From IMG/VR virus record IMGVR_UViG_2737471819_000015: a DNA stretch of 4,073 nt; one strand, 5' to 3'. This document shows positions 1 through 4,073 of this stretch, piece after piece. A program made the position numbers and the translations under genes. The DNA is from a virus. Lineage: Duplodnaviria; Heunggongvirae; Uroviricota; Caudoviricetes. Below the pieces are notes generated by a model that saw only the letters and a program-made list of their open reading frames with translations, made no database searches and was not told where the DNA came from. Each line of letters opens with the position of its first letter. Position 1 is the first letter of the stretch.

Positions 1-278
1 TCATTCACCGCCTTCTGCAGTACTTCCGGATCGTAGTCACGACCGTCACGCGGAACAGGGATATGGCTTACCGCCTCCTTCACCATCTGCTCAAGCATCG
101 GACGCACATCATCGCCCGTCACGCACTTCTGTAATACCACAGACAGGGAAGCCAGTTTTTCTTCAAACGTTTGTGCCTGCGCGGCTATTTTCCCCTCAAA
201 TGTGCGCTGTAAATCCGCCAGCACTGCGGAAAATTCTTCACCCAGCGCACGGATAATGGACAGTTCACGTTCATTCAT
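1..278 (-). CDS. Hypothetical phage protein, N-terminal fragment (first 92 codons; continues beyond the window start)
   Basis: ATG at 276..278 overlaps the portal stop (ATGA arrangement). Translation MNERELSIIRALGEEFSAVLADLQRTFEGKIAAQAQTFEEKLASLSVVLQKCVTGDDVRPMLEQMVKEAVSHIPVPRDGRDYDPEVLQKAVN... The frame stays open to the window edge. GGGGGA lies 10 nt upstream of the ATG. Identity not recognised; by position it could be a minor head / head-morphogenesis or adaptor protein. Confidence 0.55.
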   Translation of the reverse strand, partial: MNERELSIIRALGEEFSAVLADLQRTFEGKIAAQAQTFEEKLASLSVVLQKCVTGDDVRPMLEQMVKEAVSHIPVPRDGRDYDPEVLQKAVN

Positions 279-1639
279 TTTTTCAGAATCCCCCTGAACA
301 TCGCCTTCACCGCATCATGCTCTGTTTCGCTTATGGCCTTATTACCGTCAGACGCGCCCTCCTGGCGTGTGCCTGACGACGTTTTCCCGGAAGACGCGAA
401 CGGATCCTCACGGGCATCACGACGGGACAGCGCCTCCAGACTGTAGTTCTGCTGCTGAAGATACAGTGCATCACCGCCGGCAAGGGGCGGCAGGTTCTCA
501 CGTTTACGGGCCTCATTGGGCGTGAGAAGCGTATTTTTCACCGATTCACCCAGCGTTTTCATGCGACGTTCGCTGTCCATTCTCAGCAGCGTGGTGACGT
601 CAAACTCCGTGCTCTCGTTTTCCCCTGTTTCCAGCGCCTCATCCAGTAACAGCTCAATGGACTCAATCAGCGTCTGCAGACACTGGGAATAATACTGCTG
701 CTCCAGCGCCTCCACGTTGTCACTGGAAGGCGGCTGGCCAACGCCAATCTTGTAGGCCGGGACACGGAACACCGAACAGACAATTTCAGCCGTCATCTTC
801 AGTTGTTCCACCGTCTGCGCATCCACCGGTGAAAACGTCGTGGGGTTATATTTCGCCCCGTTGCTCAGGATCGCCGTTTTCCCCGCATTTTCGCCGGTAT
901 ACCCGCTGTCCCAGTTGCTCTTCAGTTTTTTCGCATTTTCTTCCGTTATACTGCCGGGGATCTCAATCACCCCGGACGGCCTGCCGCCATTTCTGAAAAA
1001 AGACGTTGAATTTGCCTGAATATGATGCCCCTGCGTGGCCGCCAGCCCGGCAGCATACACCGGCGGCAGCCCCACAAGCGGATGAAAAAAACAGTTAAAC
1101 CGGTCGTGGATCACTTCCCTGGCAGGCACCGTCACCGCCTCCGTGATCCCGCAGTTCCGGTCCGGCGTGATGCGGTAGAACACCTCGCCGTCATCCGCCA
1201 CCAGAGGTTCAACCCGGCTCCAGTCCAGAATACGCAGTTCTTTGATCTGCCCCCGGGAGTTACGGATTTTCAGCACCACCGTATTGCCGTGACGCAGTTT
1301 GGCGTTCAGCCACAGTTCAAAAAACTGGATGCGGTTCTGCTGTGCATTGGGACGACGACAGAGGCGGGCAATATCCCCCCGGCGCGTTTCCCTGCGTATC
1401 CCCTGCGCATCCGTCTGCATAAGACGCAGCCGCATTTTGGCGATATCCTGGGATATCAGCGAAATACATGCAAACACCGCATGAAAGGAGAGGACGGCTT
1501 CAGGATCGGCTTTCACGCCCTGCTGCCAGGCGCCGGCAAAGGGCTCAGCCACCGCCTGAAACAGGCTGGTCCAGCCCGCCTCTCTTACGTCACGTCCTGA
1601 TTTCTGGTTTTTTCGGGTTCGCCGTAAAAGGTTCCACAT
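275..1639 (-). CDS. Phage portal protein, HK97 family (454 aa)
   Basis: The full-length frame carries the motif series I associate with HK97-type portal proteins: AVFACISLISQDIAKMRLRL, RPNAQQNRIQFFELWLNAKLRHGNTVV, FFRNGGRPSGVIEIPG, NWDSGYTGENAGKTAILSNGAKY, DAQTVEQLKMTAEIVCSVFRVPAYKIGV, TLLTPNEARKRENLPPL. Start ATG at 1639 with GGAG 8 nt upstream; stop TGA at 275..277. Confidence 0.85.
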   Translation of the reverse strand: MWNLLRRTRKNQKSGRDVREAGWTSLFQAVAEPFAGAWQQGVKADPEAVLSFHAVFACISLISQDIAKMRLRLMQTDAQGIRRETRRGDIARLCRRPNAQQNRIQFFELWLNAKLRHGNTVVLKIRNSRGQIKELRILDWSRVEPLVADDGEVFYRITPDRNCGITEAVTVPAREVIHDRFNCFFHPLVGLPPVYAAGLAATQGHHIQANSTSFFRNGGRPSGVIEIPGSITEENAKKLKSNWDSGYTGENAGKTAILSNGAKYNPTTFSPVDAQTVEQLKMTAEIVCSVFRVPAYKIGVGQPPSSDNVEALEQQYYSQCLQTLIESIELLLDEALETGENESTEFDVTTLLRMDSERRMKTLGESVKNTLLTPNEARKRENLPPLAGGDALYLQQQNYSLEALSRRDAREDPFASSGKTSSGTRQEGASDGNKAISETEHDAVKAMFRGILKK

Positions 1640-1806
1640 TCGCCATGCTCCGCATCACGTTTCTTTTTCTGACCTGCCGGACGTCGCACCGTGATGTACT
1701 CCGCCTTTCCCAGGCGAACCAGCACCTCCGCACACGGCTGTGCCACATCACGGATATCCCCGGCCCGGGCATCATGCGTGCCCTGCAGATATCGGATCTT
1801 TGCCAT
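1585..1806 (-). CDS. Hypothetical small protein (73 aa), uncertain gene; overlaps the portal start by 55 nt in another frame
   Basis: ATG at 1804..1806; translation MAKIRYLQGTHDARAGDIRDVAQPCAEVLVRLGKAEYITVRRPAGQKKKRDAEHGECGTFYGEPEKTRNQDVT. Codon choice looks gene-like (CTG, CAG, ATC, GAT, GCG), unlike the Arg/Trp/Cys-rich third frame. A consensus SD (AAGGAGG, 1837..1843) lies upstream but is separated from the ATG by the 22-nt hairpin plus 8 nt. No homology is recognised. Confidence 0.3.
   Translation of the reverse strand: MAKIRYLQGTHDARAGDIRDVAQPCAEVLVRLGKAEYITVRRPAGQKKKRDAEHGECGTFYGEPEKTRNQDVT
1640..1651 (-). promoter_or_regulatory. Ribosome-binding site of the portal gene (GGAG, 8-nt spacer, ATG)
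   Basis: Minus strand reads GGAGcatggcgaATG; GGAG at 1648..1651, ATG at 1637..1639. Confidence 0.5.
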
Positions 1807-1814
1807 AACCTGTT

Positions 1815-1836
1815 ACGGGAGGCACACGCCTCCCGT
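1815..1836 (-). other. Perfect 9-bp GC-rich inverted repeat (stem-loop) immediately downstream of the capsid stop codon
   Basis: Plus 1815..1823 acgggaggc and 1828..1836 gcctcccgt are exact reverse complements separated by a 4-nt loop (acac). On the mRNA strand it reads ACGGGAGGC-GUGU-GCCUCCCGU. No U-tract follows on either strand, so it is not a classical intrinsic terminator. Confidence 0.6.
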
Positions 1837-1850
1837 CCTCCTTATCAGAC

Positions 1851-3212
1851 TCAGCCGCCGGACGCACTGCCATAGTTCACTCCGGTGATCACCGCCACCG
1901 CCGCGGTACGGCGACGACGCCAGTTGATCCAGCGCTCCGCACGGATGGCCACGCTGCCTGTCTGGAACATGGAAACCAGCTCCACCGGCGACGGCGTGGT
2001 ACTGTCGCCGGTCGGCTCAGACTGCATTTCCAGTGATGCCTCGCGGGACATATCCACTGCCACGCCGCCGTCATCCGCCAGATAAATATCCGGGGCATTC
2101 ACCAGCACCAGCTGGTCACCCACGTACTGGGAGACAATCACCGGCAGCCCCTGGAAGGAGCCACCCAGCAGGGTCATGTCCGGGTATTCTTTCTGACCCA
2201 GCGCATTTTTACGCATGGACAGCGCCAGAGCATTGGTGCTGGACATCAGCCAGACCGCACCGGTGGGCTGCAGGTTTGCTGCAACAAACTGTCCAAACGC
2301 CGCCTCTGCATCCGCATCCGGGTTACCGCTTGAGGCCGTGCCCTTCACATCATGGGTGATGGACGCCGGGGAGACATCTGCCACCGCCGCTTTTTTCGGG
2401 TCCACAAAGTCTGTATCCAGACGCGCCACCACCGCTTCCGCCAGCGCATTACGGACCAGTGCATCAGCAGCCGGACTGGAAAAACGGATCAATTCTTCCG
2501 TCAGTACCGCAATGGCCGACACCTTCGCATGACTGAAGGTGATGGATTCAAAATCAAACTTCGTCAGGGGTTTTGCCTTACCCTCACCCACCCAGCCGGC
2601 AGCACCGCCCGACACCTGGGCGTGCACACGGATATTGAACGGCACCTGACGAAGTGCAGGGATCCCGCCCTGACCAAATCGCCCGATAATGGTCTGAGGA
2701 CGCAGGTAATCAATAAAGTCCTGTGCGTATTCCTGATATTCAGACAGGCTGCCTGCCCACTGCGGATCCGTGGTGGTCCCCGCGCCCACTGCCGATTTCA
2801 GGACATGATGCAGACGACTGTCATCCGGATACTGACGACGGGCCACTTCCAGGGCTTCAGAGCGGACACCTTTAGCCGCAGCCAGCGATTTGGCAAAACG
2901 TGCGAAACCAATCCCCTTATCCAGTTTCTGCTCCACACGGATCACAGGCGCAGAAGCCACCGCGGCCACATTCCCGTTACCGGCCTGTTTCACCGGCTGC
3001 GCCGTGGCGGCCTTACCGGCTTCCAGTTCACGCAGGCGCTTCAGGTGCGCATCCACCTGACGTATTTCCGCTGCGGTGTTGTCGTAATGCTCTTCCTCCT
3101 CCACATCCAGCGTGCGCCCTTCCTCTGCGGCTTTGGTCATGACCTCCTCAAGGGAGGCTGCCAGTGCTGCACGCTTGTTTTCAAAACTTTTAATCTGTTC
3201 GCCAATATTCAT
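1851..3212 (-). other. Major capsid protein unit with N-terminal delta/scaffold-like segment (residues 193-645 of the fusion ORF), beginning at internal Met193
   Basis: The in-frame ATG at 3210..3212 opens a segment (MNIGEQIKSFENKRAAL...) that resembles the N-terminus of stand-alone HK97-type capsid proteins with a delta domain. It is preceded by AAGGA (3223..3227) with a 10-nt spacer. Confidence 0.5.
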
Positions 3213-3788
3213 TATGGTCTTTTCCTTATGAAAAACGGTTGTTGACTGTGCCGCAGCGCCGGCAGAAGATGCGATTTTCACCACCGGTTTCCGGTTGCCG
3301 GACGCGGCAGAAAACTGGCGGTCGTAAGATTTAATGGTCCGGATGGTGCATTCCGCATTCGCGGGCACGGTGACGGCAGACACCTCCATCAGCTCCCAGC
3401 GCAGAAAATGCAGTCCGCCTCCGTCCAGAAAGGTGTATTCATGAGGACGGAAGCCCACGGACAGCCCCCTGACCAGCCCGGTCTTAATGGCCGCCCAGGC
3501 CTCATCCAGCCTGGCAGCCAGTTGCGATGGCATATCCGGCACGGGCTTCGCCAGTGTTGCCGTGATTTCCAGCCCTTCGCTGACCCGGCGCACCGTACAC
3601 TGCCCCACCGGGCGGGAATGGTCATGCTGCCAGAGAAACGGGATCGCACTGCCAAACTCCGCGCCCTCCGGCTCCAGGATGTCACCATCCCGATCCGGAG
3701 AAGGCGTTGACGCAATCCCGGTGATCACCCGCTCATCCTCACTGAAGGATTTCACCGTCAGCAGGGAGCAGGCCCGTTTAAGAGTCAC
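1851..3788 (-). CDS. Fused prohead serine protease / delta(scaffold)-like coiled coil / HK97-fold major capsid protein (645 aa)
   Basis: Single uninterrupted frame. Residues ~20-155 carry prohead-protease (HK97 gp4-type) hallmarks: IPFLWQHDHSRPVG (His-containing motif), RGLSVGF (candidate nucleophile Ser110) and LMEVSAVTVPANAECTI. Residues ~193-300 are charged and coiled-coil-like (MNIGEQIKSFENKRAALAASLEEVMTKAAEEGRTLDVEEEEHYD...LKRLRELEAG). Residues ~300-645 look like an HK97-family capsid protein (WVGEGKAKPLTKFDFESITFSHAKVSAIAVLTEELIRFS...; C-terminal SVAIRAERWINWRRRRTAAVAVITGV). Strong SD plus GTG start; TGA stop at 1851..1853 followed in frame by further TGA and TAA stops. Confidence 0.85.
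   Translation of the reverse strand: MTLKRACSLLTVKSFSEDERVITGIASTPSPDRDGDILEPEGAEFGSAIPFLWQHDHSRPVGQCTVRRVSEGLEITATLAKPVPDMPSQLAARLDEAWAAIKTGLVRGLSVGFRPHEYTFLDGGGLHFLRWELMEVSAVTVPANAECTIRTIKSYDRQFSAASGNRKPVVKIASSAGAAAQSTTVFHKEKTIMNIGEQIKSFENKRAALAASLEEVMTKAAEEGRTLDVEEEEHYDNTAAEIRQVDAHLKRLRELEAGKAATAQPVKQAGNGNVAAVASAPVIRVEQKLDKGIGFARFAKSLAAAKGVRSEALEVARRQYPDDSRLHHVLKSAVGAGTTTDPQWAGSLSEYQEYAQDFIDYLRPQTIIGRFGQGGIPALRQVPFNIRVHAQVSGGAAGWVGEGKAKPLTKFDFESITFSHAKVSAIAVLTEELIRFSSPAADALVRNALAEAVVARLDTDFVDPKKAAVADVSPASITHDVKGTASSGNPDADAEAAFGQFVAANLQPTGAVWLMSSTNALALSMRKNALGQKEYPDMTLLGGSFQGLPVIVSQYVGDQLVLVNAPDIYLADDGGVAVDMSREASLEMQSEPTGDSTTPSPVELVSMFQTGSVAIRAERWINWRRRRTAAVAVITGVNYGSASGG
3324..3731 (-). 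other. Prohead protease domain within the fusion ORF (approx. residues 20-155)
   Basis: Candidate catalytic His in W53-Q54-H55-D56-H57 (codons at 3618..3632) and candidate catalytic Ser110 in GLSVGF (codon 3459..3461); codons were checked directly against the sequence. Domain limits are approximate. Confidence 0.7.
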
Positions 3789-3799
3789 ATCAGCCTCCT
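3789..3799 (-). promoter_or_regulatory. Ribosome-binding site of the capsid/protease gene (AGGAGG, 5-nt spacer, GTG start)
   Basis: Minus strand reads cAGGAGGctgatGTG: a consensus Shine-Dalgarno at 3794..3799, 5-nt spacer, GTG at 3786..3788. The ATG at 3788..3790 is out of frame and is followed at once by TGA, so GTG is the only usable start for the 645-aa frame. Confidence 0.6.
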
Positions 3800-3800
3800 G

Positions 3801-3825
3801 AAAATAAAAAAACCGCCGCAGCGGT
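3801..3825 (-). terminator. Terminator-like element on the coding strand between terL and the capsid gene: 5-bp GC-rich stem with tetraloop followed by a U-tract
   Basis: Minus-strand RNA would read ACCGC-UGCG-GCGGU (plus 3812..3825; the arms are exact reverse complements) followed directly by UUUUUUAUUUU (plus 3801..3811). The stem is short, so strength is uncertain; the tract could equally be an A/U-rich translational enhancer in front of the capsid ribosome-binding site. Confidence 0.35.
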
Positions 3826-3851
3826 CCATGATGGTTACAGGGTGAACAGGG

Positions 3852-4073
3852 TTATATGAAAAAAACCGCATATTCTTTCTTTTTCGGCTCCGGATTCAGG
3901 GACATCAGGGATACCGCATTGAAGAGCGCCATCAGCGGGTCAATTTTCCCCCGTCCGCTGGCCTGTTTGGTAATAAGGATGGCGTTACCTTTCGGCTCCA
4001 CCCGGGCATTGCCAACGCACCAGGCCATCAGTGGCTGACCACCATGCACCAGCACTCCCTCAGCCAGTTTGCG
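3852..4073 (-). CDS. terL: Phage terminase large subunit, C-terminal fragment (5' end lies beyond the window edge)
   Basis: The minus-strand frame is open from the window edge (codon phase fits exactly at 4073) to a TAA stop at 3852..3854. Translation is RKLAEGVLVHGGQPLMAWCVGNARVEPKGNAILITKQASGRGKIDPLMALFNAVSLMSLNPEPKKKEYAVFFI. The pattern ...W..GN.....GN....K.....KID...AL..A.. is what I recall for the C-terminal end of HK97/lambda-type large terminases (memory of the family, not a search). The 'M' in the ORF track at 4055 is a GTG and is not the true start. Confidence 0.65.
   Translation of the reverse strand, partial: RKLAEGVLVHGGQPLMAWCVGNARVEPKGNAILITKQASGRGKIDPLMALFNAVSLMSLNPEPKKKEYAVFFI

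What the first reader, a model, noticed from the sequence alone, without database searches (positions are those of the whole stretch)
1851..3788. Prohead protease, scaffold-like delta domain and major capsid protein encoded as a single 645-aa ORF
In canonical HK97-type head modules the maturation protease and the capsid protein are separate adjacent genes. Here one continuous frame carries both, with protease motifs (WQHDH; GLSVGF) in the N-terminal ~160 residues, a coiled-coil delta-like segment, and an HK97-fold capsid core. That would tie protease to capsid subunit at the translational level and removes the need for a separate scaffold gene. The continuity is read directly from the sequence, so it is not an annotation artefact, though a sequencing indel in the source assembly cannot be excluded from here.
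Basis: partly seen in the sequence, partly recalled or inferred. Interest (0 to 1): 0.6.

Follow-up and report, generated by a model that had tools for sequence, protein, structure and literature searches.

The report
Fused prohead protease–capsid gene, Stx phage
This is the long-annotated head gene of long-tailed Shiga-toxin phages, in which the capsid-maturation protease is fused in frame to the capsid protein; the fusion is real and widespread but not new, and it keeps a conserved internal start site that probably also makes capsid protein without the protease.

Summary
The ORF lies on the minus strand at 3788..1851 and encodes 645 aa, with a GTG start preceded by AGGAGG. It has four parts:
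- an HK97 gp4-type (S78) prohead protease, aa ~17-154, with H55 and S110 invariant in 120 diverse relatives;
- a disordered linker, aa 155-192;
- a helical delta-like hairpin, aa 195-262;
- an HK97-fold capsid core, aa ~293-645.

It is not an assembly artefact. The window matches phage BP-4795 over its full length without gaps at 98.3% identity, and it occurs in 1252 of 5426 complete E. coli genomes. Full-length fused relatives extend down to about 37% identity across alpha-, beta- and gammaproteobacteria.

It is also not new. GenBank has called this gene 'major head protein/prohead protease' since the BP-4795 record. Pseudomonas phage PAJU2 ORF003 (48% identical) is annotated 'prohead protease fused capsid protein'. 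PHROG 617 is a full-length family.

What I add is the junction. The fusion point (M193, window 3212..3210) is exactly where unfused relatives start their capsid gene, and fused genes keep a start codon and a Shine-Dalgarno sequence there. Across 64 distinct fused genes, 95% of junction starts have an SD of -5 kcal/mol or stronger, against 14% of other in-frame ATG/GTG codons.

The likely reading is a nested gene giving protease-delta-capsid plus delta-capsid alone. This is inferred from sequence comparison and has not been shown experimentally.

The parts
3810..3827 (-). Terminator-like GC hairpin plus T-run between terL and the fusion gene
   Evidence: This is the only terminator-like site in the window. 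The same hairpin, followed by GGAGG, recurs upstream of the first start in most related loci, with varying loop sequences.
3794..3799 (-). Shine-Dalgarno AGGAGG of the full-length ORF
   Evidence: Read from the sequence. The duplex with the anti-SD is -10.3 kcal/mol and the spacer is 5 nt.
1851..3788 (-). 645-aa ORF (GTG start 3788..3786, stop 1853..1851): protease, linker, delta domain and HK97-fold capsid protein
   Evidence: ORF listed. Family matches, including a full-length PHROG 617 hit at E 2e-261. It is 99.5% identical at protein level to BP-4795 ORF56, annotated 'putative major head protein/prohead protease'.
3327..3740 (-). S78 (HK97 gp4-type) prohead protease domain, aa 17-154. Catalytic His55 is at 3626..3624 and Ser110 at 3461..3459.
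3213..3326 (-). Disordered, indel-rich linker, aa 155-192
   Evidence: pLDDT below 50 for aa 155-189. It is the most variable stretch in alignment A1. Short conserved AASG and PG(A/V)SG motifs appear.
3223..3227 (-). Internal Shine-Dalgarno-like AAGGA, 10 nt upstream of the internal ATG
   Evidence: Sequence; duplex -6.2 kcal/mol. The aligned codon is GGA in 17 of 20 loci, although GGA is only 10.3% of Gly codons and is never the majority codon at the 31 invariant Gly columns.
3210..3212 (-). Internal in-frame ATG (Met193), the proposed start of a 453-aa delta-capsid product
   Evidence: Invariant in A1. ATG in 19 and GTG in 1 of 20 loci. ATG in 59 and GTG in 5 of 64 distinct viral junctions. 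Unfused capsid proteins begin exactly here.
3003..3212 (-). Delta (scaffolding) domain, aa 193-262: helical hairpin
   Evidence: Helices 195-222 and 229-262 with pLDDT about 96. Profile hit to the N-terminus of the cf-PICI EcCI2 major head protein, 9gyi_B residues 4-68, E 2.8e-9.
2913..3002 (-). Flexible segment, aa 263-292, the expected region of maturation cleavage (inferred)
   Evidence: pLDDT below 50 for aa 269-279. By analogy with HK97 gp5 cleavage between the delta domain and the N-arm; not tested.
1854..2912 (-). HK97-fold capsid core, aa 293-645
3852..4073 (-). 3' end of the large terminase gene (context; runs off the window)
   Evidence: PHROGs 2699, 7331 and 9. BP-4795 ORF55.
275..1639 (-). 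Portal gene (context), located downstream of the capsid gene
   Evidence: Pfam Phage_portal E 5.7e-81 and TIGR01537 E 3e-105.

Best explanation
The ORF is the head-shell gene of long-tailed lambdoid (BP-4795-like, Stx-converting) phages. An HK97 gp4-type serine protease is joined by a disordered linker of about 35 aa to the scaffolding (delta) domain and HK97-fold body of the major capsid protein.

**Shown here**
- The architecture, the folds and the conserved catalytic His/Ser.
- Conservation of the fusion across Proteobacteria.
- The origin of the junction. The fusion point is the old capsid start codon. In a close unfused relative the two genes are in the same frame and separated only by TAA-GGA-nnn-nnn-ATG, so loss of that stop gives the K/E/Q-G-x-x-M seen in fused genes.

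**Inferred**
- The gene is nested. Ribosomes starting at GTG 3788 make the 645-aa protease-delta-capsid chain. Ribosomes starting at the retained SD and ATG (3227..3223 and 3212..3210) make a 453-aa delta-capsid chain.
- The two chains co-assemble through their identical delta and capsid parts, so the protease is carried into the procapsid covalently and at sub-stoichiometric dose.
- After assembly the protease removes itself, the linker and the delta domains, leaving a mature capsid protein that starts around aa 265-292.
- The logic matches lambda C/Nu3, Mu I/Z and herpesvirus UL26/UL26.5, except that here the short form is the capsid subunit itself.
For: **Architecture**
- Searches support the domains and folds.

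**The fusion is conserved, not an indel**
- Searches show this within Enterobacterales.
- Of the best 150 representatives at 50% clustering, 140 are fused at 37-54% identity.
- 19 of 22 genome loci scored for reading-frame continuity are fused, including Reyranella, Caulobacter, Burkholderiaceae and Candidimonas.
- 76 of 80 viral loci have a continuous frame.

**The junction is the ancestral capsid start**
- Unfused capsid proteins P0201, P0231, P0254, P0258 and P0269 align from query residue 193-196.
- Acidovorax and Snodgrassella loci are unfused.
- Burkholderia phage vB_SBP9 reads 'TAA GGA TTA CGT ATG' in a single frame.

**The internal start signal is under selection**
- M193 is invariant inside the most variable stretch of the protein.
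- The junction codon is ATG or GTG in 20 of 20 genome loci and 64 of 64 distinct viral junctions.
- The Gly codon forming the SD is GGA in 17 of 20 loci, against 10.3% usage overall and no GGA majority at 31 invariant Gly columns.
- SD of -5 kcal/mol or stronger: 95% of junction starts against 14% of 2001 other in-frame ATG/GTG codons. SD of -9 or stronger: 45% against 0.4%. The junction has the strongest SD of all in-frame starts in 35 of 64 genes, with many GAGGAGGG or AAGGAGGG motifs 6-9 nt upstream.
- PAJU2 has AGGAGG 8 nt before its junction ATG.
- In this window the junction lies in the least-structured 60-nt stretch of the mRNA (-2.0 kcal/mol against a mean of -18.2, rank 2 of 626).

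**Precedent**
- Nested protease/scaffold genes are documented in bioRxiv 10.64898/2026.09.13.751334 and PMC4378225.
Against: - No expression or protein data were available. Internal initiation is inferred from comparative sequence only.
- In this E. coli lineage the internal SD is modest: AAGGA, -6.2 kcal/mol, a 10-nt spacer, and only in the top 12% of positions in the gene.
- The open mRNA structure is largely explained by the Lys/Asn/Thr-rich amino-acid composition. Synonymous shuffles reach the observed folding energy in 10-88% of trials.
- Ribosomes elongating from the strong upstream start could occlude the internal site.
- The only published interpretation I found for a family member (PAJU2, Uchiyama 2009, as cited in PMC8306868) is a polyprotein that cleaves itself. 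It does not mention a second start.
Confidence: 0.65

Rival explanations
1. Obligate polyprotein. Only the 645-aa chain is made, so every capsid subunit brings its own protease (1:1). The protease then cleaves itself off autocatalytically. The conserved ATG and SD-like sequence at the junction would be kept for another reason, such as a cleavage-site peptide K/E-G-x-x-M, a translational pause, or frequent evolutionary toggling between fused and unfused states.
For: - This is the interpretation attached to PAJU2 ORF003, described as a 'capsid polyprotein' that is autocatalytically cleaved.
- The upstream start has the stronger SD in this window, -10.3 against -6.2 kcal/mol.
- Fused and unfused states both occur among relatives of about 50% identity, and can differ by a single stop codon.
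Against: - A peptide-level constraint does not explain the exclusive use of the rare GGA codon.
- It does not explain why the only tolerated replacement of Met is Val encoded by GTG.
- It does not explain SDs of -10 to -12 kcal/mol, often the strongest in the gene, at 6-9 nt spacing in distant fused members.
- Within Enterobacterales every sampled member is fused and synonymous sites are saturated, yet the signal persists.
Confidence: 0.28
2. The protease domain is a decayed or non-catalytic remnant. It would serve only as extra scaffold or cargo, with maturation carried out by another protease.
For: TIGR01543 scores below its curated cut-off, 46.6 against 59 bits.
Against: - H55 and S110 are invariant, and E135, S137 and N144 nearly so, in 120 relatives at 36-54% identity.
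- Pfam S78 scores above its gathering threshold.
- The fold model is confident, with pLDDT above 90.
- No other protease gene is annotated in the BP-4795 morphogenesis module, ORF54-70.
Confidence: 0.04
3. The continuous frame is a sequencing or assembly indel, or a pseudogene fusion specific to this genome.
For: None was found.
Against: - The same length and frame appear in 92 phage records and 1244 E. coli genomes with at least 80% coverage.
- The P0002 cluster has 9916 member sequences.
- The fused architecture is retained down to about 37% identity in other bacterial classes.
Confidence: 0.01

Closest known systems
BP-4795 ORF56 and the equivalent genes of Stx1/Stx2 long-tailed converting phages and O157 prophages (GenBank product 'major head protein/prohead protease')
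   Same: It is the same gene: 99.5% protein identity, 98.3% DNA identity over the whole window, and the same neighbours, in the order terL, fusion gene, 73-aa ORF, portal.
   Different: Nothing material differs. RefSeq now labels it only 'major capsid protein', which hides the protease domain.
Pseudomonas phage PAJU2 ORF003, 'prohead protease fused capsid protein' (Uchiyama et al. 2009, Virus Res 139:131; cited in PMC8306868)
   Same: A full-length homologue, 48% identical over aa 1-642. The gene order is the same: terminase, fusion gene, small ORFs, portal. It is annotated as a virion structural protein and proposed to be autocatalytically cleaved. It also carries an internal AGGAGG plus ATG at the junction.
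   Different: The host and phage backbone differ, and its internal SD is stronger than the one in this window.
HK97 gp4 (protease) and gp5 (delta domain plus capsid protein)
   Same: The same protease family and catalytic residues, the same fold for the capsid core, a scaffold supplied as an N-terminal delta domain, and no separate scaffold gene.
   Different: - HK97 has two genes separated by a stop, at 4025/4028.
- The HK97 order is terL, portal, protease, capsid. Here the portal follows the capsid gene.
- The residue aligned to the HK97 cross-linking Asn356 is Gly611 here.
- Sequence similarity between the capsid parts is marginal (hhalign E 0.001).
Nested protease/scaffold genes: lambda C/Nu3, Mu I/Z, herpesvirus UL26/UL26.5, HFTV1 gp17/gp17.5
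   Same: A long form carries the protease. An in-frame internal start gives an abundant short form that shares the assembly-competent C-terminal part (lambda and HSV from established knowledge).
   Different: In those systems the shared part is a free scaffold protein. Here it would be the delta domain plus the capsid subunit itself. The short form is experimentally shown in those systems and only inferred here.
Actinophage protease-capsid fusions (Arthrobacter clusters AM, AU, AN; Rhodococcus RRH1; NCBIfam NF045541)
   Same: The same domain order in one gene, described in the literature as an 'unusual feature' (PMC5513430).
   Different: There is no close sequence relationship: NF045541 scores 53 bits against a cut-off of 525 and matches only aa 48-287. 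These are probably independent fusion events.

Membership tests
Peptidase S78 (HK97 gp4-type prohead serine protease, PF04586) | Sequence match above the curated threshold | tested here: met
   PF04586 scores 34.1 bits against a cut-off of 21, over aa 48-153. hhalign to HK97 gp4 gives probability 97.3% and E 2.7e-11. TIGR01543 is below its stricter equivalog cut-off, 46.6 against 59 bits.
Peptidase S78 (HK97 gp4-type prohead serine protease, PF04586) | Catalytic His and Ser conserved (HK97 gp4 His65 and Ser114) | tested here: met
   S110 aligns with gp4 S114. H55 lies one column from H65 in the hhalign output. H55 and S110 are present in 120 of 120 diverse relatives.
Peptidase S78 (HK97 gp4-type prohead serine protease, PF04586) | Herpesvirus-assemblin-like fold | tested here: met
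Peptidase S78 (HK97 gp4-type prohead serine protease, PF04586) | Proteolytic processing of the capsid precursor inside the procapsid | not testable with these tools
   This needs biochemistry or N-terminal analysis of virion protein.
HK97-family major capsid protein with delta domain (PF05065 / TIGR01554) | Sequence match above the curated threshold | tested here: met
   PF05065 scores 52.5 bits against 24.2. TIGR01554 scores 77.3 bits against 27.5, over aa 204-584.
HK97-family major capsid protein with delta domain (PF05065 / TIGR01554) | HK97 fold | tested here: met
HK97-family major capsid protein with delta domain (PF05065 / TIGR01554) | N-terminal helical scaffolding (delta) domain removed at maturation | tested here: inconclusive
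   The helical hairpin 195-262 is present and is homologous to the N-terminus of the cf-PICI EcCI2 head protein. Its removal was not testable.
HK97-family major capsid protein with delta domain (PF05065 / TIGR01554) | Lys-Asn isopeptide 'chain-mail' residues (HK97 K169, N356, E363). This defines HK97 itself, not the whole family. | tested here: not met
   By hhalign, E618 corresponds to E363 but G611 corresponds to N356 and S415 to K169. Position 611 is Asn in 106 of 120 relatives. The alignment has low confidence (probability 20%).
NCBIfam NF045541 'prohead protease/major capsid protein fusion protein' | Score above the curated cut-off | tested here: not met
   53.1 bits against a cut-off of 525, covering only aa 48-287. 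The architecture is the same but the family is different.
PHROG 617 (full-length protease plus major head protein family) | End-to-end profile match | tested here: met
   E 2e-261, aa 1-639 against profile positions 7-626 of 626.
Nested in-frame protease/scaffold gene pair (lambda C/Nu3 type) | Conserved internal in-frame start codon with a ribosome-binding site at the domain boundary | tested here: met
   ATG or GTG in every fused gene examined, and an SD of -5 kcal/mol or stronger in 95% of junction starts against 14% of control codons.
Nested in-frame protease/scaffold gene pair (lambda C/Nu3 type) | Two protein products actually made from the one ORF | not testable with these tools
   No Ribo-seq or proteomic data were accessible. 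See the next steps.

The most novel reading that the evidence does not exclude
Protease-capsid fusion genes of this large proteobacterial phage family would be nested genes. The retained ribosome-binding site and start codon at the old gene boundary would yield delta-capsid protein without protease as the bulk building block. The full-length chain would then be a minority, covalently targeted protease carrier. Protease dose per procapsid would be set by the ratio of two initiation sites, and a single stop-codon change would switch between two-gene and nested one-gene layouts. I found no paper describing a nested capsid gene of this kind.
Probability: 0.6. Interest if true: 0.5.

Novelty: already known. 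Interest (0 to 1): 0.3.

Why it matters
The fusion itself changes little. It is a known variant of the HK97 head module and has been annotated as such for about twenty years.

The junction is the useful part. It offers a simple, testable answer to the obvious puzzle of a 1:1 protease-capsid fusion, namely crowding and protease dose. It extends the lambda/herpesvirus 'nested protease-scaffold' logic to a capsid gene.

There is also a practical point. This gene sits in roughly a quarter of complete E. coli genomes, often in several copies, and current RefSeq naming ('major capsid protein') hides both the protease domain and the probable second product.

Tried and rejected
- **Shallow structure model.** The first AlphaFold run on the 14-sequence alignment A1 gave mean pLDDT 39 and was discarded. 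The 120-sequence alignment A2 gave 86.
- **SD strength alone.** On the genome loci, SD energy by itself was unconvincing, falling in the top 5-19% of positions. The case rests on codon-level and family-wide tests.
- **mRNA openness.** The junction is the least-structured stretch of the mRNA, but synonymous-codon shuffles do not show this goes beyond what the amino-acid sequence dictates. I do not count it as independent evidence.
- **NF045541.** Membership was rejected.
- **Correction to an early assumption.** I took 9gyi_B to be HK97 gp5 because of its length. It is the cf-PICI EcCI2 head protein.
- **Literature.** Nine searches found the fusion described, but no report of an internal start in a protease-capsid fusion. 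Two papers I tried to open were not held: Veesler 2014 and one requested under a PMC id I guessed for Duda 2013. I did not try to open Uchiyama 2009 and know it only as cited in PMC8306868. An earlier description cannot therefore be excluded.
- **Artefact or pseudogene reading.** Rejected.
Full report
**1. Observation**

The window carries one long ORF on the minus strand, 3788..1851, encoding 645 aa from a GTG start. AGGAGG lies 5 nt upstream of the start.

Curated profiles confirm both halves.
- Pfam Peptidase_S78 matches aa 48-153 and Phage_capsid matches aa 386-635, both above their gathering scores.
- TIGR01554 (HK97-type major capsid protein) matches aa 204-584.
- PHROG 617 matches end to end at E 2e-261. 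A full-length fused family therefore already exists in a 2021 phage-protein library.

**2. Where it comes from**

The whole window aligns in one ungapped piece at 98.3-98.5% identity to Stx1a-converting phage Stx1_121427 and to phage BP-4795. It aligns at 95-97% to many Stx1/Stx2 long-tailed converting phages.

Similar DNA is present in 1252 of 5426 complete E. coli genomes, with a median of 4 places per genome.

In the BP-4795 record the ORF is ORF56, 'putative major head protein/prohead protease'. The minus-strand gene order is:
- small terminase, large terminase;
- ORF56;
- a 73-aa ORF;
- portal;
- a 461-aa ORF;
- head-tail connector genes and tail genes.

**3. Not an artefact, and broadly conserved**

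- The 90% cluster of the E. coli protein has 9916 member sequences.
- Homologues at 73-78% identity in Salmonella, Enterobacter, Klebsiella, Serratia, Kosakonia, Pantoea and other genera are 643-650 aa long.
- An exhaustive HMMER search of 1.84 billion cluster representatives gave 1199 hits at E ≤ 1e-30. Of the best 150, 140 are fused full-length proteins at 37-54% identity and 7 are capsid-only.
- A scan of one genome per species found 25 loci. A single continuous frame is present in 19 of the 22 scored for continuity, including Reyranella, Caulobacter, a Burkholderiaceae MAG and Candidimonas at 34-45% identity. Acidovorax and two Snodgrassella loci have separate protease and capsid genes.
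- 76 of 80 IMG/VR loci have a continuous frame.

**4. Anatomy**

A shallow alignment gave an unusable model. With 120 diverse fused relatives the AlphaFold model has mean pLDDT 86. It shows:
- a beta-rich domain, aa 17-154;
- a disordered linker, aa 155-189;
- two long helices, aa 195-222 and 229-262;
- a second disordered stretch, aa 269-279;
- a confident alpha/beta body through to the C-terminus.

The helical hairpin matches the N-terminal residues 4-68 of the cf-PICI EcCI2 major head protein at E 2.8e-9. That is the position a delta (scaffolding) domain occupies. No separate scaffold gene is annotated in the module, but the same is true of HK97 itself.

**5. The junction**

The in-frame Met193 (window 3212..3210) is invariant among enterobacterial homologues, although it sits at the end of the most variable, indel-rich stretch of the protein.

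Unfused capsid proteins of the family begin exactly at this residue. Isolated phages with separate genes show how the fusion arises:
- Burkholderia phage vB_SBP9 reads TAA-GGA-TTA-CGT-ATG with both genes in one frame.
- vB_FUBS1 reads TAA-GGATTCCTTACGC-ATG.
- SOVA965 has AAGGA 8 nt before its capsid ATG.

Converting that stop to a sense codon gives the K/E/Q-G-x-x-M found in fused genes. The stop-overlapping AAGGA is the capsid gene's Shine-Dalgarno sequence.

**6. Is the internal start still under selection?**

Evidence in favour:
- In all 20 genome-derived fused genes the junction codon is ATG (19) or GTG (1, Reyranella, preceded by AAGGAGG).
- The codon supplying the SD core is GGA in 17 of 20 loci and GAA (keeping AAGGA) in 2. 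GGA is only 10.3% of Gly codons in these genes. It is never the majority codon at the 31 invariant Gly columns, and only one of those columns uses a single codon. This is a nucleotide-level constraint, not a protein-level one.
- In 64 distinct junctions from viral contigs the codon is ATG in 59 and GTG in 5. Most members at 42-51% identity carry GAGGAGGG, AAGGAGGG or CAGGAGGG 6-9 nt upstream.
- Junction starts have an SD duplex of -5 kcal/mol or stronger in 95% of genes, against 14% of 2001 other in-frame ATG/GTG codons. At -9 or stronger the figures are 45% against 0.4%. In 35 of 64 genes the junction has the strongest SD of all in-frame start-like codons.
- PAJU2 has AGGAGG 8 nt before its junction ATG.

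Evidence that weakens the case for this particular window:
- The SD here is modest: AAGGA, -6.2 kcal/mol, with a 10-nt spacer. The first start has AGGAGG at -10.3 kcal/mol but uses GTG.
- The junction lies in the least-structured 60 nt of the mRNA. Synonymous shuffles show that this follows mostly from the amino-acid composition, so I do not count it separately.

**7. Interpretation**

*Shown.* This is a conserved, catalytically intact protease-delta-capsid fusion whose junction is the former capsid start site.

*Inferred, about 0.6-0.65.* The gene is nested and yields both the 645-aa chain and a 453-aa delta-capsid chain. They would co-assemble, so that the protease is delivered covalently but at less than one per subunit. 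The protease would then remove itself, the linker and the delta domains.

This parallels the nested protease/scaffold pairs of lambda (C/Nu3), Mu (I/Z), herpesviruses (UL26/UL26.5) and the archaeal virus HFTV1 (gp17/gp17.5).

The main rival (about 0.28) is an obligate 1:1 self-cleaving polyprotein, which is the published reading for PAJU2. It does not account for the codon-level and family-wide SD conservation. Decayed-protease and artefact readings are effectively excluded.

**8. Comparison with what is known, and novelty**

- The gene is identical in kind, and nearly identical in sequence, to long-annotated GenBank entries.
- PAJU2 ORF003 is annotated 'prohead protease fused capsid protein'.
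- Protease-capsid fusions are described for several actinophage clusters (PMC5513430).
- NCBIfam holds a separate fusion family to which this protein does not belong.

The finding as stated is therefore already known.

The conserved internal initiation signal is the one element for which I found no description in nine literature searches. Two papers I tried to open were not held, and I did not try to open Uchiyama 2009, which I know only as cited in PMC8306868. An earlier description cannot be excluded.

**9. Verdict**

The nested-gene reading is the part worth an experiment.

Noticed in passing
window 3810-3827 (minus strand), and upstream of the first start in L002-L016, L021, L026, L027: A GC hairpin plus T-run (terminator-like) sits between terL and the fusion gene, directly followed by a strong GGAGG SD. 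The CCCGC/GCGGG stem is conserved across genera while the loop varies. HK97 also has an annotated 'putative terminator' just before its protease gene. Its function (attenuation, mRNA 5'-end stabiliser or processing site) is unknown.
   Followed up: partly
window 3789-3854 (minus strand): The terL stop (TAA, 3854..3852) and the fusion-gene GTG are in the same frame, with no other stop in the 63-nt spacer. One stop-codon change would therefore fuse TerL to the protease-capsid chain. One E. coli contig encodes a 1079-aa protein with terminase, S78 and capsid domains (P0001), and two distant representatives of about 1090 aa (P0123, P0133) match the query from their residue ~441.
   Followed up: partly
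window 275-4073; L001, L027, L023, L030: The module order is terL, protease(-)capsid, small ORF(s), portal, rather than the canonical terL, portal, protease, capsid of HK97. This order is shared by fused and unfused relatives (PAJU2, Burkholderia phage vB_FUBS1, Snodgrassella prophages).
   Followed up: partly
window 1585-1806 (minus strand): A 73-aa ORF (PHROG 829, unknown function, no Pfam hit) lies directly after the capsid gene and overlaps the annotated portal start by 55 nt. A similar small ORF with the same N-terminal motif (xIxYLxxxHDAxxGxxxDV) follows the capsid gene in Snodgrassella loci, where it ends in Ala/Asp repeats and a Lys-rich tail.
   Followed up: no
window 1-278 (minus strand); L001 7893-9278: This is the start of a 461-aa ORF (BP-4795 ORF59) that overlaps the portal stop by ATGA. 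PHROGs 2271 and 1289 label it 'portal protein', and the 859-position profile of PHROG 2271 spans the portal plus this ORF. However, the Pfam portal domain lies only in the upstream 454-aa ORF. ORF59 has no clear Pfam domain and looks internally repetitive. PAJU2 ORF007 is a shorter relative.
   Followed up: partly
window 1956-1958 (codon 611, minus strand): The residue aligned to HK97's cross-linking Asn356 is Gly in this E. coli lineage but Asn in 106 of 120 diverse relatives. The Glu aligned to HK97 E363 (E618) is kept in 109 of 120. This lineage may have lost a chain-mail cross-link that the rest of the family could have. The underlying alignment to HK97 gp5 has low confidence.
   Followed up: partly
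window 3249-3308 (aa 161-180, minus strand): Within the otherwise variable linker, two short motifs are conserved across the family: A-A-S/T-G at aa 161-164 and P-G-A/V-S-G at aa 176-180. They are candidate self-cleavage sites and are reminiscent of the Ala|Ser sites of herpesvirus assemblin.
   Followed up: no
window 3786-3788 (minus strand): The full-length ORF starts with GTG in this window, whereas the 19 fused relatives from other genera and PAJU2 that were examined use ATG at the same position. This may lower the yield of the protease-bearing long form.
   Followed up: no
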